Shown here: piece by piece, positions 100 to 31,646 of the stretch
Position numbering within the stretch: the first letter of the stretch is position 1
Layout of the letters: each line of letters opens with the position of its first letter
Virus record (IMG/VR): IMGVR_UViG_2061766007_001954
Reading direction: 5' to 3' (one strand)
DNA: 64,000 nt
Origin: an uncultured virus (IMG/VR IMGVR_UViG_2061766007_001954)
Taxonomy: Duplodnaviria; Heunggongvirae; Uroviricota; Caudoviricetes
The notes under the pieces: generated by a model
Database searches by the model: none
The model's input: the letters and a program-made list of their open reading frames with translations, nothing else
Told to the model about the DNA's origin: nothing
Position numbers and translations under genes: made by a program

Positions 100-186
100 C
101 CCATCGTAGCTCAGTTGGTAGAGTACGAATTGTGTGTCAGCTTCTGACACCTACTGCAAGTTCTATCCTATTGTAAAGGCGGGGTC
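100..186 (+). ncRNA. tRNA-Thr(UGU)-like RNA with a hairpin+ACUGCAA insertion in the anticodon stem, truncated by a gap
   Basis: TAGCTCAGTTGGTAGAG D-arm. CG[insert 128-166]CCT-ATTGTAA-AGGCG would form an anticodon arm if the insert is looped out. The insert contains a GTGTCAG/CTGACAC hairpin followed by ACTGCAA. Confidence 0.55.
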
Positions 187-1235: not shown

Positions 1236-1255
1236 ATATTTAGAAAGGAATAACA

Positions 1256-2212
1256 ATGAACCTCACAATCACCGAGAGGGATAAATATATCCGTCACTGC
1301 GATGTAAAGCAGTATCTTAAAGCCGACAGCGCCAAGATCGAACGCTATCTGTTCGGTCACAAAGTCATCCTCGGCAACAACCAGTGGCTCTGGCATACTC
1401 ACATCAAGTTCTGTGAAAGATGCAATGCCAGATGCTCCTTCTGCATTGAACAGAATTCACACAGACAGGAGCTGCCCAAGAAAGTCATCTATAACGCAGA
1501 CATATTCCTGCGGGCAATGAAAGGTCAGGGCATTCTCTATAGCGTGTCCGTAACAGGTGGAGAACCGACCATCATGCCTGAGCTGGTTGATCTGTGTGTT
1601 ATGCTGAAAGCTCACGATATCAAATTTCTGACCATGAATACCAACGGAAGTCTTCTTCATAAGGTGCGTCCCTTTGTGGATGGTCTCTTTGATTTCGTCG
1701 ACATCAGTCGTCACAGTATCGATGATGCACAGAACAGTGGCATTTTCAAGACAATCACTGTGCCGACGCTGGAAGAGCTGAGACAGCTGAAAGAATCGTT
1801 CACAAAAACAAAACTGCGCATTCAGTGTGTTATGCAGGCCGGCATGACAGTGGAGCAATTTTTGAAAATGCTGGAGGCTTACAGCTTTGCAGATAACATC
1901 AGCTTCCGGCGTCTCATGAATCCGTTCGACTGGTTTACTGCCTACAACGACACCTTTGACGATCAGTATTTCAAGATACTCGACTGGGTGGCAGAACACG
2001 GTGAATTCGTCGAGCAGACTATTCAAGATTACTATGTGTACGAGATTTGGAATGTCAACGGCGTGAACGTTACTTTCAGTTACTCCGACATGCGGTCGCT
2101 AGATGCGCTGGAAAAGGTGGAAGATGAAGCAAACATTCGAGAGTTCATCATTCACCCCGATGGCGTGGTAGCCGGAAGCTGGCTGCCCGGCAGAAAGATC
2201 ATTCTCGAATAA
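1256..2212 (+). CDS. radical SAM protein
   Basis: CNARCSFC (CxxxCxxC), VSVTGGEPT, MNTNG. Confidence 0.9.
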   Translation: MNLTITERDKYIRHCDVKQYLKADSAKIERYLFGHKVILGNNQWLWHTHIKFCERCNARCSFCIEQNSHRQELPKKVIYNADIFLRAMKGQGILYSVSVTGGEPTIMPELVDLCVMLKAHDIKFLTMNTNGSLLHKVRPFVDGLFDFVDISRHSIDDAQNSGIFKTITVPTLEELRQLKESFTKTKLRIQCVMQAGMTVEQFLKMLEAYSFADNISFRRLMNPFDWFTAYNDTFDDQYFKILDWVAEHGEFVEQTIQDYYVYEIWNVNGVNVTFSYSDMRSLDALEKVEDEANIREFIIHPDGVVAGSWLPGRKIILE

Positions 2213-3467: not shown

Positions 3468-3475
3468 TTCATCTT

Positions 3476-3594
3476 AGGATACTAACAGCAATCATTAAGT
3501 AATTAGACAAAAGGTTAAGTCACCAAACATCTAATTTGGCATCTGTCAGTTCGGATCTGACATTACGTTCCCTTACTGGGATTAATAGTATCCT
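3476..3594 (+). ncRNA. stem-ACAGCAA RNA enclosing a whole tRNA-Arg(UCU)-like cloverleaf
   Basis: AGGATACTA/TAGTATCCT stem, ACAGCAA at 3485; inside are a D-like arm, CCAAA-CATCTAA-TTTGG and GTCAG-TTCGGAT-CTGAC. Confidence 0.7.
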
Positions 3595-3754
3595 TCTTAT
3601 GGCCCATCGTAGCTCAGTTGGTAGAGCACGAATTGTGTGTCAGCTTCTGACACCTNNNNNNNNNNCTCCTTTCGTTTTCTACAGCATTCAAGGGAATTAA
3701 TCATCAGTGAACTGGTGGCTTTAGTCGATCTCTTGAATGCTGTTTTTCATTTTC

Positions 3755-3833
3755 GTGACGCATACAGCAATCCACATGGTAAATACAAGTCTTGAAAAAC
3801 TTGTTGTGGTTCAACTCCACAATTCTGCGTCAT
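3755..3833 (+). ncRNA. stem-ACAGCAA RNA with Ser(UGA)-like anticodon arm and T-arm
   Basis: GTGACGCA/TGCGTCAT, ACAGCAA at 3764, ACAAGT-CTTGAAAA-ACTTGT, GTGG-TTCAACT-CCAC. Confidence 0.7.
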
Positions 3834-3852
3834 GTCTTCAACCCATTAACTT

Positions 3853-3899
3853 GGACACCAACAGCAACATTATTGACCACAAATCAATTGATGGTGTCC
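3853..3899 (+). ncRNA. stem-ACAGCAA RNA with 5-bp/7-nt stem-loop, directly upstream of the DUF2828 RBS
   Basis: GGACACCA/TGGTGTCC, ACAGCAA at 3861, ATTGA-CCACAAA-TCAAT. Confidence 0.65.
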
Positions 3900-3913
3900 T
3901 GAAAGGAAACACT

Positions 3914-5374
3914 ATGACAACATTCGCTCGCGCTCTCCGCAAGGAAAGCAGAAAGACCCACACTGAAAATGGTGCTACCGCATATAGCACCACCGGTTCC
4001 GCTGTTTTGGACCTCTTTGGTTGCATCGGCTCGCTCCGTGAACGCAATGATTCTGAGATCGAGCGTCTCTTTGCTGACGCCTATCGTCAGGATCCGCTGC
4101 TTACCACTCGCTGTGTGTTTTATGCCCGTGATATCCGAGGCGGACTCGGTGAGCGCAACACTTTCAGAGTTATCCTACGCTATGCCGCCAAGCATCATCA
4201 GGAAGCAGTCAAGCCGAACATCCCGCTGATCGGTCTCTATGGCCGCTATGACGATTTGTACTGCCTTGTCGGCACCCCGCTGGAGGCTGACATGTGGGAG
4301 TACATGGATGCCCAGTTCAAGCTGGATGAGTTCAATATGAAGCGCGGCAAGCCCTGCAGCCTACTCGCAAAGTGGATCAAGACCCCAGACGGCAGCGCCA
4401 AGCAGACCAGGAAGCTCGGCTGCATGACTGCGCTGCACCTGGATCGTTCGGTGTACATGTTCAAGCGGCGCCTGCGCGCACTCAGAAAGTATCTGCATAT
4501 CGTCGAAGCGCAGATGTCTGCAAACAAGTGGAACGAAATCGACTACAGCATCGTTCCTTCCCGCGCTGCCATGATCTACCGCAAAGCGTTCTTGCGCCAC
4601 GATGAAGCCCGCTACCAGGCCTATATCGGCAAGGTGGAAAAGGGTGAGGAAAATATCCATGCGGATACGCTCTATCCGTATGACCTGGTGCATCAGGCAT
4701 GGCGCAACAGGCGTGAAGACGCCACCGTGGAAGCACAATGGCGGGCGCTGCCGAACTATCTGACAGAGCCTGCCAATGCCATCGTTATCGCCGATACCAG
4801 CGGCTCGATGACCTGCAACGGCGGACGTCCGCTTGACAGCTCGGTTGGTCTGGCGATCTATTTCGCTGAACGCAATACCGGACCGTTCCACAATCTGTGG
4901 ATGAGCTTCTCGGGTGATAGCCGCATTCAGCATCTCCGTGGCGAAACGCTGCATCAGAAGGTCGAAAACATCGACTACAGTCACTGGGCAAACAACACGA
5001 ACCTGGAGCGTGCATTCATGCATGTTCTTCAGATCGCCCAGGAGAACAACGTCAGACAGGAGGACATGGTGAAGAGCCTGATTGTCATCTCCGATATGGA
5101 GATCGATCGCACGGCCGGCAGCTGGTCTTTCTATGATGAGATGCGCAACCGCTTCCAGCAGGCAGGCTATGAAATACCGAATGTCGTTTACTGGAACGTC
5201 AACTCCCGTAACGACATCTTCCATGCGGACAAGAACCGCAAGGGAGTGCAGCTCTGCAGCGGACAGTCTCCGGCGACGTTCAAGCAGTTGATGGCAAGCA
5301 TCGGTATGACACCCATGCAGATGATGCGTAAGGTGCTCAACGGCGAGCGCTATCAGCCTGTCACGCTCGGCTAA
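3914..5374 (+). CDS. DUF2828-family protein (Ro60/TROVE-like helical domain plus vWA)
   Basis: TENGATAYSTTGSAVLDLF, ARDIRGGLGER, LLAKW, TLYPYDLV, MIDAS DTSGSM, ISDME, VVYWNV; AAGGA RBS. Confidence 0.85.
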   Translation: MTTFARALRKESRKTHTENGATAYSTTGSAVLDLFGCIGSLRERNDSEIERLFADAYRQDPLLTTRCVFYARDIRGGLGERNTFRVILRYAAKHHQEAVKPNIPLIGLYGRYDDLYCLVGTPLEADMWEYMDAQFKLDEFNMKRGKPCSLLAKWIKTPDGSAKQTRKLGCMTALHLDRSVYMFKRRLRALRKYLHIVEAQMSANKWNEIDYSIVPSRAAMIYRKAFLRHDEARYQAYIGKVEKGEENIHADTLYPYDLVHQAWRNRREDATVEAQWRALPNYLTEPANAIVIADTSGSMTCNGGRPLDSSVGLAIYFAERNTGPFHNLWMSFSGDSRIQHLRGETLHQKVENIDYSHWANNTNLERAFMHVLQIAQENNVRQEDMVKSLIVISDMEIDRTAGSWSFYDEMRNRFQQAGYEIPNVVYWNVNSRNDIFHADKNRKGVQLCSGQSPATFKQLMASIGMTPMQMMRKVLNGERYQPVTLG

Positions 5375-5384
5375 CATTTAACAT

Positions 5385-5516
5385 TGGGGAAGGGTGCACC
5401 TCAAGACAACACAAACGCACAAAGCTGCAGACGTTAGGATGAGTAGTGTTGTGTCTGATCCTAATGGGGGCACACGTGCAGCGATTGAGCAGTCTGGCGA
5501 GACCTGGGCTGCTCCC
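5385..5516 (+). ncRNA. candidate multi-pseudoknot structured RNA
   Basis: Four interleaved complementary segment pairs plus a terminal hairpin in intergenic DNA. Confidence 0.4.
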
Positions 5517-5968
5517 ATTTTCTAGACAACTGGTGCTTCTTAATGATTAGTTGTAAACTCGGCAAGCGCATCTGATGAATCTTCGCCCACTGCTCGAGGC
5601 ATCTAATCCAACTTCTTGATGGCATCAGCTGTCTTTACTTTTCCAGCCAGCCCAGAACGAAGAAGGGCAATTGCAGTTTCTCTCGGTTTGGGTTATGGGA
5701 TAACTGGGCTGGCTGGATTTCATGTTCCCGGAAACGGGGCATATTACTGCCATGCATATGCGTTCATTGTCATGCCGTGCCCACTCGGTGTGGTTTTGAA
5801 GACAGATCAATGTTCCAATCACATCCGCTGTTTTATATCGTTCCAAAGGTTCAGCTTGAGGGTTCTCCGCCCTGACGTTGTGATGCATCCTGTCAAAGTT
5901 GGCAGTAACTGACCTTCCTTCTCCTTTATAGTAGTGATACTGTATAGGAGAAGGTTTTTGTTTAATGC

Positions 5969-6044
5969 GCCAGCATAGCTCAGCAGGTAGAGCAATTCTT
6001 TTGTAAAGAATGGGTCGCGGGTCCGAATCCTGCTGCTGGCTCCA
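5969..6044 (+). tRNA. tRNA-Thr(UGU)
   Basis: GCCAGCA/TGCTGGC, ATTCT-TTTGTAA-AGAAT, TCCA end. Confidence 0.9.
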
Positions 6045-6057
6045 TATACTTTGTTAT

Positions 6058-6130
6058 CGGCGTGTTGACCAGTTGGTAGGCCGTCGCATTTGGGGTGCGA
6101 AAGTCGGGGGTTCGAGTCCCTCCACGCCGA
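6058..6130 (+). tRNA. tRNA-Pro(UGG)
   Basis: CGGCGTG/CACGCCG, TCGCA-TTTGGGG-TGCGA, TTCGAGT; CCA not encoded. Confidence 0.9.
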
Positions 6131-6166
6131 AATCCTTTACCTTTCCCCTCTCTAGGAGGTACACAT

Positions 6167-6562
6167 ATGAAATACATTCTTGCAATTCTTCTTACTGTTC
6201 TCGCTCTTACTGCAACCGCATCATCTGGTTTACAGCAACTTCTTAAGGATATTCCAGCAGATCATTTGGCTGTCGGAGTCCCCATGGTTCAGGCCCCTGC
6301 TATCAGTGATTTCAACAATATCCCGCGTGAGGGCTACAGACCTGTTACTTACTGGATGACATCAAATGCCAATGAGAGTTTCTATCCTGGCGTTAACTGG
6401 TATCATTCTGACTTTGCTGCCGATCCTTTCGATGGACGTATTGAAGTATTGGTAGTGGGAGAACCGTTGCCCTCTGCATCTATGACGATCTTTATAATGG
6501 CAGCAATTGTGGGAATAATATATTGGTGTAGGTTTAAGCCTGACCGAGAACTTGCTTTCTAA
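6167..6562 (+). CDS. secreted protein with PEP-CTERM-like (GEPLP) C-terminal sorting signal
   Basis: N-terminal signal peptide MKYILAILLTVLALTATAS; C-terminal GEPLPS, TM helix and basic residues; AGGAGGT RBS. Confidence 0.6.
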   Translation: MKYILAILLTVLALTATASSGLQQLLKDIPADHLAVGVPMVQAPAISDFNNIPREGYRPVTYWMTSNANESFYPGVNWYHSDFAADPFDGRIEVLVVGEPLPSASMTIFIMAAIVGIIYWCRFKPDRELAF

Positions 6563-6578
6563 TCAACAAGGACAACAT

Positions 6579-7001
6579 ATGAAAACACTCATTCAAAACC
6601 CGATCAGCCTCTTCTGGCTGTGCATGCTATTGCACCTGCTGGCTGACTTCCATTTCCAGGGCATCCTGGCAAGTATGAAGCAGAAGAACTGGTGGCCCAA
6701 GGCAATGAAATCTCTGCCCTGGAAAACCAGATGCAAAATCAAACAATCGCATCTCTTCGACTATGACTATGTGATGGCGCTGCTGTGTCATGCTCTTATG
6801 TGGAGCCTGATTACGTTATTGCCGCTTATGCTGGCAGTAACGCCCCTGCAGTTCTCTTTGCTTATCGGAGCCAACACTGTTTTTCACGCTATAGTTGACC
6901 ACGCAAAAGCGAACAAGCTTTGGATCAACCTCTGGGTCGACCAACTGCTTCATGTTTTGCAGATTGCGGCAACCGTAGCAGTCGTACATTACTTCATGTA
7001 A
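6579..7001 (+). CDS. DUF3307-family membrane protein
   Basis: HLLADFHFQ, HAIVDHAK, DQLLH motifs. Confidence 0.75.
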   Translation: MKTLIQNPISLFWLCMLLHLLADFHFQGILASMKQKNWWPKAMKSLPWKTRCKIKQSHLFDYDYVMALLCHALMWSLITLLPLMLAVTPLQFSLLIGANTVFHAIVDHAKANKLWINLWVDQLLHVLQIAATVAVVHYFM

Positions 7002-7003
7002 TT

Positions 7004-7337
7004 TACCTTTAGCACAGTTGGCTTAGAGGCAGCCATCTGTTAAAGAGTGACCCACGACATAGTGAACAGACCTTAAGTGGAAACCACGTGATACTCTGAC
7101 ACGCTATGCAAAAACACTCCGGACAAACCCGTGCGCCTAATAGGTCGTTCTAATGGTTGCAGGTTAGGCCTAAGCGAGAGCGATGAGTGATAATGCACAG
7201 CGAATGGTATGAGGTGGACAAAGCATCAGAACGAATGCGAGGTCCTATGGCTAACGAGGCAAGGGGAATAGACCTCTTCACGAACCTCCGGTAACACCGG
7301 GAGTGTGGTCTTTGGCGTAAAAGCACAACTAAAGGTA
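7004..7337 (+). ncRNA. structured RNA containing a split 23S rRNA H43/H44 mimic, copy 2
   Basis: TACCTTTAG/CTAAAGGTA closing stem; GTTGGCTTAGAGGCAGCCATCTGTTAAAGAGTG ... GCGTAAAAGCAC. Confidence 0.7.
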
Positions 7338-7347
7338 TTTTATTCTT

Positions 7348-7408
7348 AGGGCGCTCACAGCAAAAATTAAAATTTAGCTTTCAAGGTTAAGCCAAATTCT
7401 AGCGTCCT
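7348..7408 (+). ncRNA. stem-ACAGCAA RNA with UCA-type anticodon-like loop
   Basis: AGGGCGCT/AGCGTCCT, ACAGCAA at 7357, TTAGC-TTTCAAG-GTTAA. Confidence 0.6.
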
Positions 7409-7425
7409 CTTTCATGATTTCAAAT

Positions 7426-7549
7426 GGCCGTGTAGCTCAACGGTAGAGCGCAAGTCAATTTATATGGTGTCAGACTTCTGTCACTAACAGCAAGCTTACA
7501 TAAATAAGGGAACTTGATGTTAGATGTTCGAATCATCTCGCGGCCACCA
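7426..7549 (+). ncRNA. tRNA body whose anticodon loop is replaced by a 56-nt ACAGCAA module
   Basis: GGCCGTG/CGCGGCC-ACCA, canonical D and T arms; CAAGT/ACTTG stem encloses TGGTGTCAG/CTGTCACTA-ACAGCAA. Confidence 0.75.
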
Positions 7550-7555
7550 TTCTTT

Positions 7556-7614
7556 GGATTCCCACAGCAATCATTAAGGATTTGACTTTTAATCAAACAC
7601 CCTATATGGAATCC
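7556..7614 (+). ncRNA. stem-ACAGCAA RNA with Lys(UUU) anticodon stem-loop
   Basis: GGATTCC/GGAATCC, ACAGCAA at 7564, TTTGA-CTTTTAA-TCAAA. Confidence 0.7.
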
Positions 7615-7625
7615 TGTTACTATTA

Positions 7626-7682
7626 AGGGCACACCCAGCAATCTTCTATAACTTTCGTCGTCATCGAAACTATAGGTGTCCT
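7626..7682 (+). ncRNA. stem-(C)CAGCAA RNA with Asp(GUC)-like stem-loop
   Basis: AGGGCAC/GTGTCCT, CCAGCAA at 7635, TTTCG-TCGTCAT-CGAAA. Confidence 0.65.
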
Positions 7683-8219
7683 GTTTATGTTCTGTCGAAA
7701 GCGAGCAGCGTTTCTTTCATCCTTTCTGCGACGCTTGCAATTAGACAGTACAACCCCACTGCCTATGGCTTTGGGTACGGTGAGTGCCGTAAGGCTCGAT
7801 AAGCGCAAGCTGCTCACCTGTTATGCCGAGTAGGGACGGACGTCCAATTCCCCGAAAGGTACCCCGCTATGCCTCTTGACAATGCACACTTTGGCGGGGA
7901 TTTTTGCATTCATTCAGGTTTTGATTACGAGGACGCTTCGTCTTCACAAAGTAATGTTAGCATGCATTAAAAGAAGACCGTTGAAGATACACGAAACGGG
8001 TACACGCTTCGAGTCAATAGACCGGCTAAAGCCGGCTTAGACTCAGCGTACACCCGTTTCGTGTCATCCTAAACGGTATCCCTTCTGTCTTCTGGCCTAC
8101 CGCATCGCTACCGTTCCGATCCAAATGCAAGCTAATGGATCGCTCACGGAGCGATGCTTAACGCCATTTCAACATTCAACATCTAGAAAACCTGATTTCT
8201 CACGAGCTTTGAACAGGCA

Positions 8220-9146
8220 GACGTTTCGTCCGCACAACCGCATGTACGGAAACACTGGAAAACAGCCAATCGTTATGATAAGCCCATGTCAACAGCAGAG
8301 ATGGCCAGCCTACGTCTGGCCATCTCGTCCTCGACATGCATAACGCTTCCGTAAGAGACGAAGCCTCCAGGTAAACCTTCGGTAGGAGTCTTATCCGGAA
8401 GAGGTCGCATGCGCGACTCTCCGGAACGACATCTACCGACAGGTAACCTGGAGGCTCCCTCAATTACTTGAACTAGAAAGCTCTACCTTCGGTTACTCAT
8501 TTGAAATTGCTGGCGTTCCGTCAGCATAGCAACAAACTAACGAGATATTAGATAGACTTGAGAACAAACATAAAACTGATCGAGATTGTCGAGCTTATGC
8601 ACATATGTTATCGAGTTTCACCAATCCATGGAGCAAACTCTCAACATAAATGCATAATCTCTCGAGCTCTACTCAGTTTTATGTCTTGACAGACAAGTCT
8701 TCAGTTCTCAACAGAAAAGAGTAACTAACCTATCACATTGACTTGACAGCGTTCCGCTGCCACAAACGTAATGACCGGTGATGTTAAAAGCATCTTCGTG
8801 CTACGTGCTCGTGCAGCTCCTCCGTCTTCCCATGCGGGAAGCCTGCATAGCTGCACGCTCACCCACCGGGATCCACCGGATCCCGCTGAGGCTCGAGCTA
8901 GAATGTGATAACAATTTGCGTTTGACTTGCGGACGTTTCGTCCGCACAACCTGAACAGTGCATAGCAATAAAAGCATATGATCAGGGATTTTTCGTCTGT
9001 AACGCAGACCGCTACGACGACGTTCCACCAGAGACAGCTCTGGCTACACGTCGTCCCGCGCTGCTACAGCCGAAAAGCACACACATGACTTTAATCTAGA
9101 AACGCAACATTAACAGCTTGACTCGCGGACGTTTCGTCCGCACAAC
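8220..9146. repeat. three dispersed copies of GACGTTTCGTCCGCACAAC
   Basis: Copies at 8220-8238, 8932-8950 and 9128-9146; the latter two read TTGACTYGCGGACG-TTT-CGTCCGC (hairpin). Confidence 0.85.
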
Positions 9147-9377
9147 AGACCAACAATATGGAATAAAAGCGTTCCATCTTACCGGGCGTTGCCCGGTTGG
9201 CTACGGAATGTCATCCTACGGACAGCGTGTATTACTACCGCCCGGTTTCATCTGCTACGCATCTGAAACCGGCTCGGTACTAATACCGGTCCTAGATGAC
9301 ATCCTTCGTCGATTACACAGAAGCTGTTAGGGATGTCCTGCGGGGCATCCCACAATCTCGATTTTTGGAAGCTTGGC

Positions 9378-9827
9378 TTAGGCTTCCTTTTTAGGCATTA
9401 CTGAACCTTCAAGCTTTAAGACGTCTTCTGGAATAGGCCTTGTAACACCTGTACCAGAAGCATTCTCTTTACGGCGCTGATTTGCAGCTTCCAGGATCTT
9501 TGCGCGAAAGTCTTTAGCGATATCCATCATCGTGTCCCATCCAGCCACACCATTACGGGCGTATGCCATAGTAAGATCCATCCACTCAAAGTAGCGTCTA
9601 ACAGCACGTTCGAGTGGAAATAACACATCACGTTGCCCGTTTCGCCCACGTAGTACAACATCGCCAGCTATCGCTTCAAGCAGACCAATTCCATTAAAAG
9701 ACATACGAGCATCTGCAAGGCCGTCATACATAGTAGCGCCAGTATCTGTAGTGACGCCTTTAATAATACCATGGGAGACGTCTGCATCTGAATAGCCACG
9801 ATCGTCGATTTTATCTATATCTGTCAT
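9378..9827 (-). CDS. hypothetical protein downstream of terminase
   Basis: 149-aa ORF with AGGAG RBS. Confidence 0.75.
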   Translation of the reverse strand: MTDIDKIDDRGYSDADVSHGIIKGVTTDTGATMYDGLADARMSFNGIGLLEAIAGDVVLRGRNGQRDVLFPLERAVRRYFEWMDLTMAYARNGVAGWDTMMDIAKDFRAKILEAANQRRKENASGTGVTRPIPEDVLKLEGSVMPKKEA

Positions 9828-28190: not shown

Positions 28191-31100
28191 ATGCAGCAGC
28201 TAGCCACAGTTGATGTCCATATAAAGGACATATTCAACGGGTCTGTCCGTGTCGCGCAGTGGACAAGAGCAGACCCGTTCCCGCAAATGGGCCCGTGTGT
28301 CGGAGTTGATACCGAGACTGAACTTATAACCGAAACTAATTCAGCGCCTCCTTTGGTGGTGCTCGGAGTTTTTGATCCGCAAAGCGCCACATGCTATATT
28401 AGCTACTGGGAAGACGCTGCTGTGTTCATCAACTGGTTGAGTAAACAGGAGATTCGGCAAGTCTATTTCAATTTGGGATTTGATGAGCATGTGTTGAATG
28501 ATGTGGACACTGAAAAGGCATTAATGGACTCCATCGAGTATGGTCGAGTCAGGGATATGCAGATCAGGACACAACTCAATGACATAGCAACAATTGGTTT
28601 CATTCCATGGAATCACTGGAAGCTGGCAGAACTCAGCGAGATCTTCCTCGGCGTACACCTTGACAAAGGAGAGGAAGATGATCCAAATTCTCACAGACTT
28701 ACATTCCGCAGAGGTACTCCAATAACACAGGAGCAAGCCATATATCTGATGTGGGACTGTGTGAGCACCTGGGCGCTCAGCGAGATTCAGCCAGAAGCAC
28801 CTACCGAGGTTCAACACACCAAAGGCATGGTCGTACTGTCGCATATCAGCCATAACGGTTTCCCTATAGATATGGTTGTATTCGAGGCCTTTGAGCGCAA
28901 ACTGCAAGCTCAGCGAGATGAGTATCGTCTCAGGCTCATGGAATTCGGATTCCCGGATCCCTACAAGAAGAATCAGGACGAGAACGGGGACTATAAACGG
29001 TTTGTGGAAAAACAGACCAGACAGTTCCTGGAGCTAACTGGTGAGGAGCTTAATAAGCCATTGAACCTGTGCAAAGGCAATATGCGTATGGCGCTCTTGT
29101 ACATGTTCAACTTTGCTGGTGAACCGGATGAGACTGAGGACTTCGAACAAAGCGTAGGTTATTGGCTGACACAAGAAAAGCCAAAGAATATACGCAAAGC
29201 AGAGAAGCCTGTATTCGATGCAATGATGACTGAGTATGAGTTGGATGCCTTCTTTGATGCCGGCAAAGAGATCGTCATGAATGCACTATTTGGGCATGTA
29301 ATGGAAGATCTGATAAACCAGCAGGGAACGAAGAAGGAAAAAGGCTATGATCTTGGTCACGCTATCGAGTATGCAGGTGATATCATAGATGACCATTCGC
29401 ACTGGTTGTCCAAAGAGGTACAGATAGGGCCAAAAACGTTTCTGCAAAATCACTATAAGCAGTTAGAGCAGAATAATCCTGGATTGGAATTACCGCGTAC
29501 TCCAAAAAGTGGAGAGATTAAACTCTCACTGCAGGACATGTGGCTTCTAGAAGATGCTGGGGTCAAGGATCCCTTTGTAGAAGTGTATACAAAATATACA
29601 CATGCTACCAAATATTTAAGCACCTACCTCAACAGGGAATTTATAAAAACGGATGGAAAGATACACGCCAAATTCACCAATTTGATGAAAACAGGTAGAA
29701 CATCATGTACCCGGCCTAATATTCAAAATCTCCCAAGTCGGGATAAGATCTATCCGTTAAAAAATATTTTTCAACCGCCTGAAGGGGCCGTATTGTGTGC
29801 GACGGACTTCTCATTTATAGAACTTTGTGCATTTGCACAGACGTGTTACAGTAGATTCGGCTACTCGGTAATGCGCGATGTTATCAATGCAGGAATAGAT
29901 CCTCATAGATGGTTCTCAGGCGTAATGAACAAAGTCATAACCCCAGACCTCAGCAATAAAGACGATCCCGAGTGGGTTGCGGAACTGAATGCCTTCTTGA
30001 AAGAGAAGATCAGCAGTGATGCCAGACAACTGGCAAAGGCAGCGAATTTTGGCCTACCTGGTAGGATGGGACCAGCTCGCTTTTATATCCACCTGAGGAG
30101 CAACGGGTTAAAGGCAACACCTGCGGAGGCAGAGGCAATGTGTAATGCATGGACACGAACCTTCAAGGAGATGCAACAACACAAAAATCCATTAAAAGCC
30201 AAAAGTACAAAACTTGCTAAAGTATTCTTCGGTATCCAACAACGTTCCGACGGGGAGGAAGATGAAGAGGACGCAGCACCGGGTGACTTCATGGCTATCT
30301 TACCATGTGGTCAAATAAGAAATCGTTGCTCGATAAACGCAGCTTGTAATGTACAGTTCCAGGGAACTACTTCGGTTGGCGCCAAGATGGCAGGCTGGAA
30401 TCTAGTATATCATGGTTACGGCGATAGGTTACTCAATTTTGTGCATGAAACCATTTGACCTGTTACAGTAGTAATAGGAGGTTTTCTATCATGTATAAAG
30501 TTTATGTCTGGACAAATCATATTACTGGATTGAAGTATGTTGGCACAACAGGTACCAGTATGGAGAAAAGGGCTGGTATCAACGGATATCACTATAGAGG
30601 ATCTCCGAGATTTTATAACGCTATACAGAAGTATGGCTTTGATAATTTCTCTTACGAGATTATTGCGGATGATTTAACTAAGGCAGATGCTGCAGAGATC
30701 GAGAAAGAATATATAGAAAAACTCGGTACTATGGATCCTGCTAAAGGTTATAATTTGCAAGAAGGTGGTTTTTCGGATAATGTGCCATTATCCAACGAAT
30801 CCAGGTCAAAACGCATATCAGATACATTGAAAGAGCAGAGAGCGTCAGCAGAATATAGAGCTATTATGAGCTCCAGGATGCAAAAAGTGTGGGATGATCC
30901 TGTACGAAGAGCAGAGATGTTGAAAAAGCGTTCTGGTAAATATGCCGGACGGCATCCAATAGCTGTATTCTGTGATGAGACAGGAGAAGTATATCCAGAT
31001 CTGCATAAAGCATCAAATGCTTTACATATATCAGCTTCGAGTATAAGTAATGCGCTTAAATGTTCAGACGTAGCTACTATCGGTGTACGGTTAGGTACAC

Positions 31101-31646
31101 CATATACAGTTAGAAAAATAAAAGTGCACGTTAAAGAGGGTGAATTGCTGGAAGCCTCAGCGGGTTATGCCGGTGGTAATCAGCAGCCAAGCTCAGAATA
31201 GCTAGAATTTGATTTCTGAGAAGGTTCAACGACTATTCGCAAGAAGTACAACCAAGTGGTTGGAAGTGCCCTCATGTTACATTAAATATGTGACATATGA
31301 TATAGTCTAATCTGCATAGAAATATGCAGCAGCTATACGGCGGTCGTTGCGTAACGAACAACGATGAATATAAATGGATGAGTTCCTTTATTGGTTGTGG
31401 CCAAATGAGTTACAAACTCATATTCCCATCATTGAAAATTTAATGATAGGTGGCATGAAGACCGTGATACCAGATGTAAAAGTAGGAGTTGAGTCTTCCT
31501 GTATGCTACACTGGGACAAGAAAGCAACCGAGTTTTCTAAACTTCAATGGACACCAGACGGTCTCCCCATACTGGAGGAACCGCCCTTCGTCCAAGAACT
31601 ACACAAGGCGCTAGAGGCGCAGAAAGAACAGGTAACGCATGATTAA
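28191..31646 (+). CDS. polA: family A DNA polymerase, join(28191..30446,31377..31646)
   Basis: VDTET exonuclease motif, TGRTSCTRPNIQN, DFSFIEL, RQLAKAANFG; splicing restores motif C VH|DE. Confidence 0.92.
30447..31376 (+). mobile_element. group I intron in DNA polymerase motif C
   Basis: P1 GTGCAT/GTGCAC (at 31124), GAATTGCTGGAA, AATCAGCAG, P7 GACTA/TAGTC, terminal G at 31376. Confidence 0.9.
30491..31201 (+). CDS. intron-encoded GIY-YIG homing endonuclease
   Basis: KVYVWTNHITGLKYVG, AIQKYG, GYNL; AGGAGGT RBS. Confidence 0.9.
   Translation: MYKVYVWTNHITGLKYVGTTGTSMEKRAGINGYHYRGSPRFYNAIQKYGFDNFSYEIIADDLTKADAAEIEKEYIEKLGTMDPAKGYNLQEGGFSDNVPLSNESRSKRISDTLKEQRASAEYRAIMSSRMQKVWDDPVRRAEMLKKRSGKYAGRHPIAVFCDETGEVYPDLHKASNALHISASSISNALKCSDVATIGVRLGTPYTVRKIKVHVKEGELLEASAGYAGGNQQPSSE

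What the first reader, a model, noticed from the sequence alone, without database searches (positions are those of the whole stretch)
7426..7549. tRNA with its anticodon replaced by a circularly permuted ACAGCAA module
Seen: intact acceptor (with ACCA), D arm and T arm, but the CAAGT/ACTTG anticodon stem encloses 56 nt. In that insert the partner strand lies upstream (TGGTGTCAG..CTGTCACTA-ACAGCAA), so it is a circular permutation of the free-standing units. Known: in YrlA RNAs the Ro-binding stem occupies the anticodon-arm position. Inference: this is a processed, CCA-ended, non-decoding tRNA mimic that tethers DUF2828.
Basis: partly seen in the sequence, partly recalled or inferred. Interest (0 to 1): 0.8.

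Follow-up and report, generated by a model that had tools for sequence, protein, structure and literature searches.

The report
Anticodon-less tRNA mimic for phage Ro-like protein
This rumen-phage gene encodes a tRNA-shaped RNA whose anticodon loop is replaced by a conserved hairpin-plus-ACAGCAA module, one form of a widespread and apparently undescribed family of small RNAs that always sits beside a phage relative of the Ro60 RNA-binding protein.

Summary
Window 7426-7549 (+) has intact acceptor, D and T arms and an encoded CCA. Its anticodon stem encloses 56 nt instead of 7. That insert holds a capped helix followed directly by ACAGCAA.

The same motif sits next to a 7-9 bp terminal stem in six free-standing ~60-120 nt units in the window. 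Such units lie beside the DUF2828/DUF7788 gene in all 8 named phages examined that have different hosts, and in 99 further uncultured loci. The window's own gene is at 3914-5374, and its predicted fold is Ro60.

Insert-bearing tRNAs like this one were called 276 times in 116 of 171 sources, always on the DUF2828 strand. A model built without the window scores the element at 78.6 bits, against at most 44.7 for ordinary tRNAs. The capped helix covaries.

No single excision can restore a canonical anticodon loop, because position 33 stays A. RNA-library contigs retain the insert.

Best reading: a non-decoding tRNA mimic that is a circular permutation of YrlA-like units and carries the docking module for the phage Ro-like protein. 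Binding, processing and function are inferred, not shown. I found no matching Rfam family or paper. The free-standing units closely resemble Dictyostelium Class I RNAs.

The parts
7426..7549 (+). tRNA-shaped RNA in native tRNA topology ('type 3'). Acceptor 7426-7432/7539-7545; D arm 7435-7449; anticodon stem 7451-7455/7512-7516; A/U helix 7458-7463/7500-7505; capped helix 7465-7473/7478-7486; ACAGCAA 7487-7493; T arm 7522-7538; A73 7546; CCA 7547-7549.
   Evidence: Rfam tRNA 52.1 bits with a 55-nt insertion. The leave-one-out family model R2 gives 78.6 bits, against at most 44.7 for ordinary tRNAs. Fold.
7348..7409 (+). Free-standing unit A: 8-bp terminal stem, CACAGCAA at 7356-7363, inner hairpin.
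   Evidence: Model R1 49.0 bits. The minimum-free-energy fold keeps the terminal stem and leaves most of the motif unpaired, z -2.87.
7556..7618 (+). Free-standing unit B: stem GGAUUCC/GGAAUCC, CACAGCAA at 7563-7570, 3' UGUU tail.
   Evidence: R1 48.2 bits. Rfam Dicty_Class_I_RNA 22.1 bits, below its cut-off of 41.5. Fold z is only -0.89.
7626..7685 (+). Free-standing unit C: stem AGGGCAC/GUGUCCU, variant motif CCCAGCAA at 7634-7641, 3' GUUU tail.
   Evidence: R1 41.8 bits. Fold z -2.22.
3914..5374 (+). DUF2828 + DUF7788 protein (486 aa), a Ro60-fold ring with a vWA domain. The true start is ATG 3914, not the ORF start at 3737.
   Evidence: Pfam PF11443 1.2e-38 and PF25043 1.7e-41. Homology to relatives begins near ORF residue 62. 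AlphaFold model pLDDT 91.4. The top 13 PDB fold matches are all Ro60 chains, best E 2.1e-8.
3853..3901 (+). Free-standing unit that ends 12 nt before the DUF2828 start codon; AACAGCAA at 3860-3867.
   Evidence: R1 29.0 bits, not in the training set. Fold z -2.76.
3754..3834 (+). Unit with a T-arm-like hairpin inside; TACAGCAA at 3763-3770.
   Evidence: R1 27.2 bits, not in the training set. Fold z -3.25.
3476..3595 (+). Long unit with a 9-bp terminal stem and AACAGCAA at 3484-3491. It encloses a T-arm-like hairpin that ARAGORN called 'tRNA-Arg' at 3497-3571.
   Evidence: R1 gives only 17.2 bits on 3474-3546. The fold has the terminal stem, z -2.81. Rfam does not call a tRNA here.
3603..3730 (+). 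Possible second type-3 element: a D arm plus a 7-bp capped helix. It is interrupted by a run of N and has no clear T arm, so it was not assessable.
   Evidence: Sequence only. Neither Rfam nor ARAGORN calls it.

Best explanation
7426-7549 encodes a stable, non-decoding, tRNA-shaped small RNA.

**What it is.** Its anticodon loop is replaced by the signature module of a phage RNA family: a helix whose 3'-going strand runs straight into single-stranded NACAGCAA. The family is encoded next to, and on the strand of, a Ro60-fold protein (DUF2828/DUF7788).

**How it most likely works.**
- The module is most likely the docking site for that protein.
- The tRNA body (acceptor, D and T arms, encoded CCA) lets the RNA be cut out of the tRNA-type transcript by the tRNA-processing enzymes. 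It then presents a tRNA-like handle to a second factor.
- The RNA would therefore act as a Y-RNA-like adaptor between the Ro-like ring and the tRNA-handling machinery. The likely role is tRNA surveillance or repair, or counter-defence.

**Relation to other forms.** It is the circular permutation of the YrlA-like form seen in other phages, in which the RNA ends lie in the module stem and the acceptor is closed by a loop.

**Shown here:** the anatomy, family membership, covariation of the capped helix and the tRNA stems, exclusive neighbourhood with DUF2828, and the Ro60 fold of the protein.

**Inferred:** RNA-protein binding, end processing, retention of the insert in the mature RNA, and the biological role.
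For: 1. **The free module is tied to DUF2828.**
   - Units of stem + NCAGCAA lie beside the gene in 8 of 8 phages examined with different hosts (Bacillus, Escherichia, Mycobacterium, Listeria, Synechococcus, Vibrio, Enterococcus, Campylobacter). In Vibrio phage nt-1 only the motif was found, with no paired stem.
   - CAGCAA is invariant in 17 of 17 aligned units. The terminal stem is 91.9% paired, against 34-47% when the partner strand is slid.
   - Model R1 finds 14 matches in 5 whole phage genomes (678,563 bases). Thirteen lie within 2.7 kb of the gene.
   - R1 finds 151 matches at E <= 0.001 in 99 loci that were not used to build it. All are on the gene's strand, and by my reading of the table 150 lie within about 0.66 kb upstream of the gene.
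   - The tRNA-rich phages T4 and T5 have no PF11443 match and no R1 match better than 16.3 bits.
2. **The tRNA-with-module form is a family.**
   - 276 calls in 116 of 171 sources, all on the + strand, 260 with the motif.
   - 90 of 112 loci with at least 2.5 kb of upstream flank hold at least one copy.
   - On a sequence-only alignment of 68 low-redundancy members, the acceptor stem is 99.2% paired, the D stem 96.7% and the T stem 99.7%. The capped helix is 88.1% paired, with both-sided changes in all 8 of its pairs (for example AU 26, UA 26, GC 8, CG 6 at one pair).
3. **The window's copy is a member.** R2, built from 67 members without the window, gives 78.6 bits (E 1.7e-17). The window's true tRNAs score 23-39.5 bits, and the best ordinary tRNA anywhere scores 44.7.
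4. **The protein is Ro-like.** The model has pLDDT 91.4. Its top 13 PDB matches are Ro60, Rsr and Thermus phage phiLo Ro60, aligned over 500-574 columns.
5. **It is not a decoder.** The loop is 56 nt, and A would sit at position 33 after any single excision.
6. **RNA-library contigs keep the insert.** They bridge the 5' insert junction (X10 record 1, X17 record 16) and the 3' junction (X10 record 1, X18 record 24). No joint skips the insert.
7. **There is a precedent.** Ro60 partners that mimic tRNA are known (PMC4201824, passages). A preprint reports that the Felixounavirus Bas63 homologue gp130 has a Ro60-like structure, counters the Ppl defence, and lies just upstream of the tRNA genes. Its authors guessed that some of those 'tRNAs' are Y RNAs (PMC11482910, passage).
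Against: - No binding, expression-end or processing data exist for this RNA.
- The contigs come from RNA libraries but could derive from carried-over DNA, and contigs drop rare spliced forms.
- The window's capped helix has a U-U mismatch and lacks the UCAUG...GUGA core kept in most relatives. It was one of 7 of 108 unique copies without a perfect 5-bp hairpin.
- The minimum-free-energy fold pairs part of the motif instead.
- This copy lies 2.05 kb downstream of the gene, behind two tRNAs and two ORFs. In contrast, 240 of 254 relatives' copies lie upstream, at a median of 646 nt; 14 are downstream, at 16-2095 nt.
- No close orthologue of this particular copy was found, so there is no covariation for its own anticodon stem or A/U helix.
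- Across the family the inner-arm pairing is not general. Only 42 of 68 members form at least 4 inter-arm pairs, and 39 of 68 fold better than shuffles.
- The stems of the training units for R1 were picked by a scan that required a stem, so the pairing figure is partly circular.
Confidence: 0.7

Rival explanations
1. It is an intron-containing tRNA gene. The 50-odd nt are removed and the exons are ligated (for example by an RtcB-type ligase) to give a decoding tRNA.
For: The insertion sits in the anticodon loop, where tRNA introns lie. The acceptor, D and T arms are perfect and CCA is encoded. A Listeria phage has an RtcB gene 1.3 kb from its DUF2828 gene.
Against: Any single excision leaves A, not U, at position 33. 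ARAGORN assigns different anticodons and intron positions to near-identical copies, for example Arg(gcg) and Lys(ttt) for one paralogue. The insert carries the same invariant motif as free-standing RNAs, and its helix covaries, which is not expected of a discarded intron. The Rfam group I intron model matches only at 31077-31329, not here. No joint skipping the insert was seen in four RNA libraries' contigs.
Confidence: 0.05
2. The RNA is real and keeps its module, but the module serves something other than DUF2828. It could be a processing or stability signal of phage tRNA-cluster transcripts, or the site of another, unidentified protein.
For: The units are packed 5-16 nt from tRNA-like genes, like punctuation in a polycistronic transcript. 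This cluster is nearer to ORFs 6095-7001 than to DUF2828. In most phages DUF2828 also sits next to the tRNA cluster, so neighbourhood with the tRNAs and with the protein are confounded. Dictyostelium Class I RNAs, which have the same motif, bind an RRM protein (PMC7919456, passages).
Against: T4 and T5 have tRNA clusters but neither the units nor DUF2828 (only two controls). Mycobacteriophage LeBron has units directly after its DUF2828 gene but no tRNA in the 13.5 kb fetched. The other flanking genes differ between the phages, and only DUF2828 is shared.
Confidence: 0.12
3. It is mainly a decoy. An anticodon-less tRNA look-alike would soak up or mislead host tRNA-targeting defence nucleases or tRNA-binding sensors, with DUF2828 only stabilising it.
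For: Several paralogues per locus use different tRNA bodies, as if they copy several tRNA species. The anticodon loop, the usual target of anticodon nucleases (established knowledge), is the part that has been replaced. The Bas63 homologue is reported to counter a defence system (PMC11482910, passage).
Against: It does not explain the free-standing units that lack any tRNA part. It also does not explain why the replacement is always this one module. The Ppl defence countered by gp130 is described as an ATPase plus PHP-domain protein that degrades DNA, not as a tRNA nuclease (same passage).
Confidence: 0.1
4. It is a decaying tRNA pseudogene that was hit by a small repeated or mobile element.
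For: The motif-bearing unit is repeated at least seven times in the window.
Against: The tRNA stems are 97-99% paired with many compensatory changes across 68 diverged members. This shows selection on the tRNA shape after the insertion. The insertion point and orientation are constant.
Confidence: 0.03

Closest known systems
YrlA-type bacterial and phage Y RNAs with Ro60/Rsr (Rfam RF02553; Chen et al. 2014, PMC4201824)
   Same: A small RNA encoded beside a Ro60-fold protein gene on the same strand. Several different copies occur per locus. A tRNA-like body (T arm, D arm, acceptor) has its anticodon arm replaced by the presumed protein-docking element. Some DUF2828-side units have exactly the YrlA topology, and two in an Enterococcus phage score 45.2 and 34.3 bits with the YrlA model.
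   Different: Here the tRNA has its native topology, with open acceptor ends and CCA, and the docking helix is the capped one. The conserved element is helix + ACAGCAA, which the YrlA passages I read do not mention. The protein belongs to Pfam DUF2828/DUF7788, not TROVE, and shows no sequence match to any solved Ro60. The YrlA model stays below its cut-off of 69 bits and gives no hit at E <= 5 in 6100-9000.
Dictyostelium Class I RNAs (Rfam RF01414; Kjellin et al. 2021, PMC7919456)
   Same: For the free-standing units: about 60 nt, a 6-8 bp stem joining the two ends, and a 5' G. The motif (CC)UUACAGCAA lies directly after the 5' strand, with the same invariant C, C, A, A positions. The middle is variable, there is a 3' C-UG(U) tail, and several different genes are clustered. 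The Rfam model's best hit in the whole genome is a DUF2828-side unit in 3 of 5 phages.
   Different: Those RNAs are eukaryotic, have a DUSE promoter, and are reported as unique to dictyostelids with an RRM protein (Rnp1A) as direct binder. All phage hits are below the cut-off (12-24 bits against 41.5), and 8 of 14 control genomes also give weak hits. The element 7426-7549 itself has the module in permuted order. Whether dictyostelids have a DUF2828 protein could not be tested here.
Thermus phage phiLo Ro60 with Yrl1/Yrl2 (PMC12135203; PDB 9KOP, 9L5Y)
   Same: A phage-encoded Ro60-fold protein with small RNAs encoded just upstream that it binds in vitro. It is the second-best fold match of the window's protein.
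   Different: Those RNAs were picked by a CGAA motif and a stem-bulge-stem shape, with no ACAGCAA and no tRNA topology (passages).
Stable RNAs of unknown function in phage tRNA clusters (T4 rnaC; T5 RNA I, RNA III and 'tRNA-like' RNA 1)
   Same: Small stable RNAs interleaved with phage tRNA genes, one of them annotated as tRNA-like (record annotation).
   Different: T4 and T5 have no DUF2828 and no match to the unit model. Any relationship was not tested further.
tRNA genes with anticodon-loop introns (bacterial group I, archaeal bulge-helix-bulge)
   Same: Extra sequence between the two strands of the anticodon stem.
   Different: At 56 nt it is too short for a group I core, and Rfam gives no such match here. 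No canonical loop can be restored. The insert is conserved and shared with free-standing RNAs.

Membership tests
tRNA (Rfam RF00005) | Cloverleaf with acceptor, D and T arms that scores above the gathering threshold | tested here: met
   52.1 bits against a gathering score of 29.
tRNA (Rfam RF00005) | 7-nt anticodon loop with U33 and a readable anticodon | tested here: not met
   56 nt lie between the stem strands. Position 33 would be A after any single excision. The loop positions are replaced by a 55-nt insertion in the model alignment.
DUF2828-associated tRNA-with-module RNAs ('type 3', defined here) | Scores with a family model built without it, well above ordinary tRNAs | tested here: met
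   R2 gives 78.6 bits, E 1.7e-17. Ordinary tRNAs in the window and 7 loci score 13-44.7 bits.
DUF2828-associated tRNA-with-module RNAs ('type 3', defined here) | Capped helix ending 0-4 nt before NCAGCAA inside the anticodon loop | tested here: met
   Helix 7465-7473/7478-7486 directly abuts ACAGCAA 7487-7493 and lies in the same alignment register as the relatives' helices. It has one U-U mismatch and lacks the usual UCAUG/GUGA core.
DUF2828-associated tRNA-with-module RNAs ('type 3', defined here) | Same strand as a DUF2828 gene and within about 2 kb of it | tested here: met
   It lies 2.05 kb downstream of the gene on the + strand. Relatives' copies are 35-2002 nt upstream or 16-2095 nt downstream.
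YrlA / bacterial Y RNA (Rfam RF02553) | Encoded next to a Ro60-fold protein gene on the same strand | tested here: met
   The fold search puts Ro60 chains at ranks 1-13. Gene at 3914-5374 on the + strand.
YrlA / bacterial Y RNA (Rfam RF02553) | RNA ends form the protein-binding stem and the acceptor-like stem is closed by a loop | tested here: not met
   7426-7549 has open acceptor ends and a capped module helix. The YrlA topology is seen only in other units.
YrlA / bacterial Y RNA (Rfam RF02553) | Match to the Rfam model at its gathering score (69 bits) | tested here: not met
   No YrlA or Y_RNA hit at E <= 5 in 6100-9000. The best hit in relatives is 45.2 bits.
YrlA / bacterial Y RNA (Rfam RF02553) | Physical binding to the Ro-type protein | not testable with these tools
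   The complex predictor takes proteins only, and no RNA-protein assay is available here.
Dictyostelium Class I RNA (Rfam RF01414) | Terminal stem, 11-nt motif next to its 5' strand, and a model score above 41.5 bits | tested here: not met
   The free units score 12-24 bits. The architecture matches but the threshold is not reached, and in 7426-7549 the order is permuted.
Dictyostelium Class I RNA (Rfam RF01414) | Dictyostelid gene with a DUSE promoter | tested here: not met
   The window is a phage-like sequence held in ruminant gut metagenomes.
Intron-bearing tRNA | Group I catalytic core or bulge-helix-bulge splice motif | tested here: inconclusive
   There is no group I match here; the only one is at 31077-31329. 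The bulge-helix-bulge motif was not searched for formally.

The most novel reading that the evidence does not exclude
The helix + ACAGCAA module is the general recognition element of DUF2828-type Ro paralogues wherever they occur. The family is reported in phages, mimivirus-like viruses and plants. On this reading, the Class I RNAs of Dictyostelium are the eukaryotic members of the same RNA family. They have been known for two decades without an established mechanism and are thought unique to dictyostelids. They would then be Y-RNA-like partners of a DUF2828 protein, possibly acquired from or shared with viruses. The phage loci would also show that one docking module can be fused to a tRNA body in either circular permutation.
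Probability: 0.25. Interest if true: 0.9.

Novelty: new variant of a known kind. Interest (0 to 1): 0.82.

Why it matters
**Reach of the protein family.** DUF2828 proteins were found in 710 of 50,697 phage records. These include the well-used Felix O1-like, Listeria P100-like, staphylococcal, enterococcal and campylobacter phages and cluster L mycobacteriophages. Their RNA partner has not been named in anything I could find.

**What this finding provides.**
- It gives a concrete and easily searchable candidate RNA family, with a sharp sequence signature and three architectures.
- It explains 'tRNA-Undet' or pseudo-tRNA annotations, such as the one in Synechococcus phage B23. It also explains an over-long ORF call for the protein in this window.
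- It makes testable a published guess that some Felixounavirus 'tRNAs' are Y RNAs working with a Ro-like counter-defence protein.

**Why the topology is of interest.** The native-topology, CCA-ended form differs from the YrlA topology. It therefore raises new questions about whether such an RNA is charged, modified or recognised as a tRNA.

**Wider lead.** The likeness to Dictyostelium Class I RNAs offers a direct lead into an old open problem.

Tried and rejected
**Searches for relatives that found nothing**
- blastn (distant mode) of 7000-9400 against the phage collection: no match.
- The search for related loci with the single protein in viral contigs: no relative. It worked only with an alignment.
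- blastn of the 124-nt element against all 171 sources found only a 25-nt D-arm match. No close orthologue of this copy was therefore available, and no covariation could be obtained for its own anticodon stem or A/U helix.
- No whole genome is held for the window.

**Protein checks that added little**
- phmmer of the protein against PDB sequences gave nothing relevant, best E 0.26.
- The Atlas search only returned DUF2828 clusters from viruses.

**Structure tests that were inconclusive**
- The motif alone is not enriched in the window.
- The general inner-arm (anticodon stem plus A/U helix) pairing test gave mean energy -4.56 against -3.60 for shuffles, with 26 of 68 members forming no inter-arm pairs.
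- The anticodon-stem columns of alignment A4 are only 52% paired, probably through misalignment.

**RNA-library contigs**
- They cannot show RNA ends, strand or abundance.
- Parts without cover, and the very deep bin at 7008-7141, say nothing about this RNA.

**Literature**
- The searches were 'DUF2828' (5 papers, none on phage RNA), Ro-like / phage / Y RNA / tRNA-like, YrlA / bacteriophage / Ro60, a six-term search, and ACAGCAA + 'Y RNA'. The last was swamped by chance matches. None describes these RNAs.
- Avesson et al. 2011, which names the four Class I RNA-associated proteins, is not held. A search for UCP015417 / TROVE / Dictyostelium / vWA gave nothing useful. Whether dictyostelids have DUF2828 therefore stays open.
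- Supplements of PMC4201824 and PMC7919456 were not read and could bear on phage YrlA lists and on outgroup Class I candidates.

**Other**
- The earlier-findings look-ups returned only classical Ro60/YrlA notes on other genomes.
- R1 was run on 99 of the 160 uncultured loci: L111-L170 were not searched, and L093 was left out.
Full report
**The observation**

The window is phage-like. It has a tRNA cluster, a group I intron and a terminase-like ORF. No genome is held for it, and the stretch is found in cattle, goat and sheep gut metagenomes.

At 7426-7549 the sequence shows the following:
- a 7-bp acceptor stem, A73 and an encoded CCA;
- a D arm and a T arm with loop TTCGAAT;
- a 5-bp anticodon stem (7451-7455 with 7512-7516) that encloses 56 nt.

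Rfam's tRNA model scores the element at 52.1 bits, with a 55-nt insertion where six loop positions should be. Default ARAGORN misses it and finds it only when introns are allowed.

The insert holds three parts:
- an A/U helix, 7458-7463 with 7500-7505;
- a capped helix, 7465-7473 with 7478-7486, of 9 bp with one U-U mismatch;
- directly after it, ACAGCAA at 7487-7493.

**The free-standing units**

Three units flank the element, at 7348-7409, 7556-7618 and 7626-7685. Each has a 7-8 bp stem joining its ends and (C)ACAGCAA or CCCAGCAA right after the 5' strand. A variable hairpin follows, and then usually G or UGU after the 3' strand.

A covariance model of such units (R1, from 17 units of 8 phages) found three more in the window, at 3476-3595, 3754-3834 and 3853-3901. 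The last ends 12 nt before an in-frame ATG at 3914. Homology of the DUF2828 ORF to its relatives starts only near residue 62 of the ORF called from 3737. The real gene is therefore 3914-5374, and the first 177 nt of the mechanical ORF are RNA genes.

**The protein**

The 486-residue product carries Pfam DUF2828 and DUF7788. It has thousands of relatives: 6673 of the 8000 candidates scored pass E <= 1e-5. It has no sequence match to any solved structure.

An AlphaFold model built from 33 sequences has pLDDT 91.4. Its 13 best PDB fold matches are all Ro60 proteins: Xenopus and human Ro60, Deinococcus Rsr and Thermus phage phiLo Ro60. They align over 500-574 columns, with best E 2.1e-8. D294, S296 and S298 are invariant in the alignment. 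That they form a D-x-S-x-S MIDAS motif like that of Ro60's vWA domain is my reading from recalled knowledge.

tblastn finds the family in 710 of 50,697 phage records. Many are annotated 'Ro-like RNA binding protein'.

**The units go with the protein**

I fetched the gene's surroundings from eight phages of different hosts. Stem + NCAGCAA units lay beside the gene in seven of them. In the eighth, Vibrio phage nt-1, the motif lies 28 nt before the gene but my scan found no paired stem.

- On a MAFFT alignment, CAGCAA is invariant in 17 of 17 units. The stem is 91.9% paired against 34-47% for slid partners, with 38 cells changed on both sides against 9.6 in shuffles. The units had been picked by a scan that demanded a stem, so this pairing figure is partly circular.
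- The location evidence is independent. In five whole phage genomes (678,563 bases) R1 gives 14 matches at E <= 0.1, and 13 lie within 2.7 kb of the DUF2828 gene.
- In 99 uncultured loci that played no part in building R1, there are 151 matches at E <= 0.001. All are on the gene's strand. By my reading of the table, 150 lie within about 0.66 kb upstream of the start.
- T4 and T5 have tRNA clusters but no PF11443 match, and no R1 match above 16.3 bits. These are only two negative controls.

**The tRNA-with-module form is a family, and the window's copy belongs to it**

ARAGORN with introns allowed gave 276 insert-bearing calls in 116 of 171 sources. (The script printed 172 because it counted ARAGORN's end line.) All calls are on the DUF2828 strand, and 260 have the motif or a one-letter variant in the insert.

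Of the first 108 unique copies, 101 have a perfect hairpin of at least 5 bp ending no more than 4 nt before the motif. The window's copy is among the 7 that do not, because of its U-U mismatch.

Ninety of 112 loci with at least 2.5 kb of upstream flank hold at least one copy, usually 1-4. In all, 240 copies lie upstream of the gene (median distance 646 nt) and 14 lie downstream (16-2095 nt). The window's position, 2.05 kb downstream, is unusual but not unique. A cyanophage copy is annotated 'tRNA-Undet'.

On a sequence-only alignment of 68 low-redundancy members the pairing is as follows:

| Helix | Cells paired |
|---|---|
| Acceptor stem | 99.2% |
| D stem | 96.7% |
| T stem | 99.7% |
| Capped helix | 88.1% |

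All 8 pairs of the capped helix change on both sides.

A model built from the other 67 members (R2) scores the window's element at 78.6 bits. The window's true tRNAs score 23-39.5 bits, and the best ordinary tRNA anywhere scores 44.7.

**Circular permutation**

In a free unit the order is: stem strand a, motif, inner helix, partner strand a'. In the insert the order is: a', loop, a, motif. The tRNA body takes the place of the inner helix.

Some relatives carry the other permutation of the whole RNA. These are units whose inner part is a T arm, a closed acceptor hairpin and a D arm, which is the YrlA topology. Examples are Tsamsa L003 4227-4349, VpaE1 L004 8365-8489, and Enterococcus phage L009 4287-4408 and 4625-4745. 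The last has an A/U helix next to the motif, like the window's copy. Rfam's YrlA model gives two of them 45.2 and 34.3 bits, below its cut-off of 69.

**It is not a spliced, decoding tRNA**

- Whatever single stretch is removed, position 33 is A. U33 is nearly universal; this is recalled, established knowledge.
- ARAGORN's anticodon and intron calls differ between near-identical copies.
- The only group I intron match in the window is elsewhere.
- In contigs of four RNA libraries, the 5' junction of the insert is bridged by X10 record 1 and X17 record 16. The 3' junction is bridged by X10 record 1 and X18 record 24. The only joints listed are elsewhere. This is weak evidence: contigs show presence only, and DNA carry-over is possible.

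**Mechanism**

What is shown:
- the anatomy;
- selection on both the tRNA shape and the module;
- exclusive neighbourhood with a Ro60-fold protein.

What is inferred, by analogy with Ro60-Y RNA and YrlA (PMC4201824, passages; PMC12135203, passages):
- The module docks the protein.
- The tRNA body is released by tRNA processing enzymes. By comparing ARAGORN and Rfam end coordinates, 5 of the window's 8 ordinary tRNAs also seem to encode CCA.
- The tRNA body serves as a handle for a tRNA-recognising partner.

A role in tRNA repair or counter-defence is suggested by two observations. An RtcB gene lies 1.3 kb from DUF2828 in a Listeria phage. A preprint also reports that the Bas63 homologue gp130 is Ro60-like in structure, counters the Ppl defence and sits just upstream of the phage's tRNA genes (PMC11482910, passage). 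The role itself remains open.

**Comparison with what is known, and novelty**

No Rfam 15 family reaches its threshold on any unit in the window or in ten loci. None of my literature searches found a description.

The concept of a Ro-type protein with tRNA-mimicking RNAs is known. The following are not known, as far as I could search:
- the RNA family;
- its motif;
- its link to DUF2828;
- the native-topology, CCA-ended form.

I therefore rate it a new variant of a known kind.

**The Class I RNA likeness**

The only Rfam model that responds at all is that of Dictyostelium Class I RNA.

From passages of PMC7919456, that class has these features:
- a 6-bp terminal stem with an invariant 5' G;
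- an 11-nt motif next to the 5' strand, whose nearly invariant letters include C6, C9, A10 and A11;
- a variable middle;
- a 3' CUGU tail;
- a length of about 60 nt;
- clustered genes.

The phage units share each of these features.

In whole-genome scans the model's top hit is a DUF2828-side unit in 3 of 5 phages. All scores are far below the cut-off, and 8 of 14 control genomes also give weak hits.

Passages confirm DUF2828 in mimivirus-like sequences and in potato. I could not test whether dictyostelids have it. The paper that names the Class I RNA-bound proteins is not held. This is the boldest reading that the evidence leaves open.

Noticed in passing
window 7014-7053: A ~40-nt stretch draws depth of 5000-7000 from two metatranscriptomes. 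Their contigs run on into sequence that reads like 23S rRNA. From memory, the stretch resembles the L11 / GTPase-associated-centre region of 23S rRNA. It may be an rRNA-fragment mimic in a phage non-coding region.
   Followed up: no
window 7003-7347: A relative in run X10 lacks these 345 nt and has 7 other letters instead. In it, unit A starts right after the upstream ORF.
   Followed up: no
window 7001-9378: A 2.4-kb stretch has no ORF above 87 aa. Besides the units it holds an abiF RNA motif match at 7863-7899 (37.3 bits, gathering score 37). It also holds five copies of a 34-nt repeat with a GC hairpin at 7918, 8206, 8498, 8918 and 9114, which may be promoter or operator sites or RNA starts.
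   Followed up: partly
window 3497-3571: ARAGORN's 'tRNA-Arg (tct)' lies inside a longer ACAGCAA unit (3476-3595), and Rfam does not call it a tRNA. It is probably a tRNA-like domain of that unit, not a tRNA.
   Followed up: partly
window 3737-3913: The mechanical ORF for the DUF2828 protein starts 177 nt too early and runs over two RNA units. One database cluster (P0001, 561 aa, 99% identical) seems to carry an over-long start of the same kind.
   Followed up: partly
window 31077-31329: A full-length group I intron match of 84.6 bits. Its host gene was not examined.
   Followed up: no
window 100-186: The type-3 model R2 gives 31.6 bits here, in the range of ordinary tRNAs, but neither ARAGORN nor Rfam lists a tRNA at this place.
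   Followed up: no
L001 1625-1718 and L002 1692-1785: A further tRNA-like form has an acceptor stem and a T arm but an odd D region. It has a hairpin + UUACAGCAA (or UUACUGCAA) in the middle, and it lies between the type-3 genes and the free units.
   Followed up: no
alignment A4 (loci L001-L169): Paralogous type-3 RNAs within one locus use clearly different tRNA bodies (different acceptor and D-arm sequences), as if several tRNA species were copied. Four of the 68 representatives encode CCA.
   Followed up: no
L006 (Listeria phage LMTA-57) 1983-2081 and 8850-10061: A drum RNA match of 50.2 bits lies in the tRNA cluster, and an RtcB-type 'tRNA-splicing ligase' gene lies 1.3 kb downstream of DUF2828.
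   Followed up: no
NC_023007.1 (Tsamsa) 1239-1307, minus strand: The Dictyostelium Class I model's best hit in this phage (19.4 bits) lies about 145 kb from the DUF2828 gene, on the same strand. It could be chance or a stray unit.
   Followed up: no
L171 (T5 30284-30644) and L172 (T4 70908-71046): The records annotate stable RNAs of unknown function inside the tRNA clusters (T5 RNA III, RNA I and 'tRNA-like' RNA 1; T4 rnaC). They do not match R1.
   Followed up: partly
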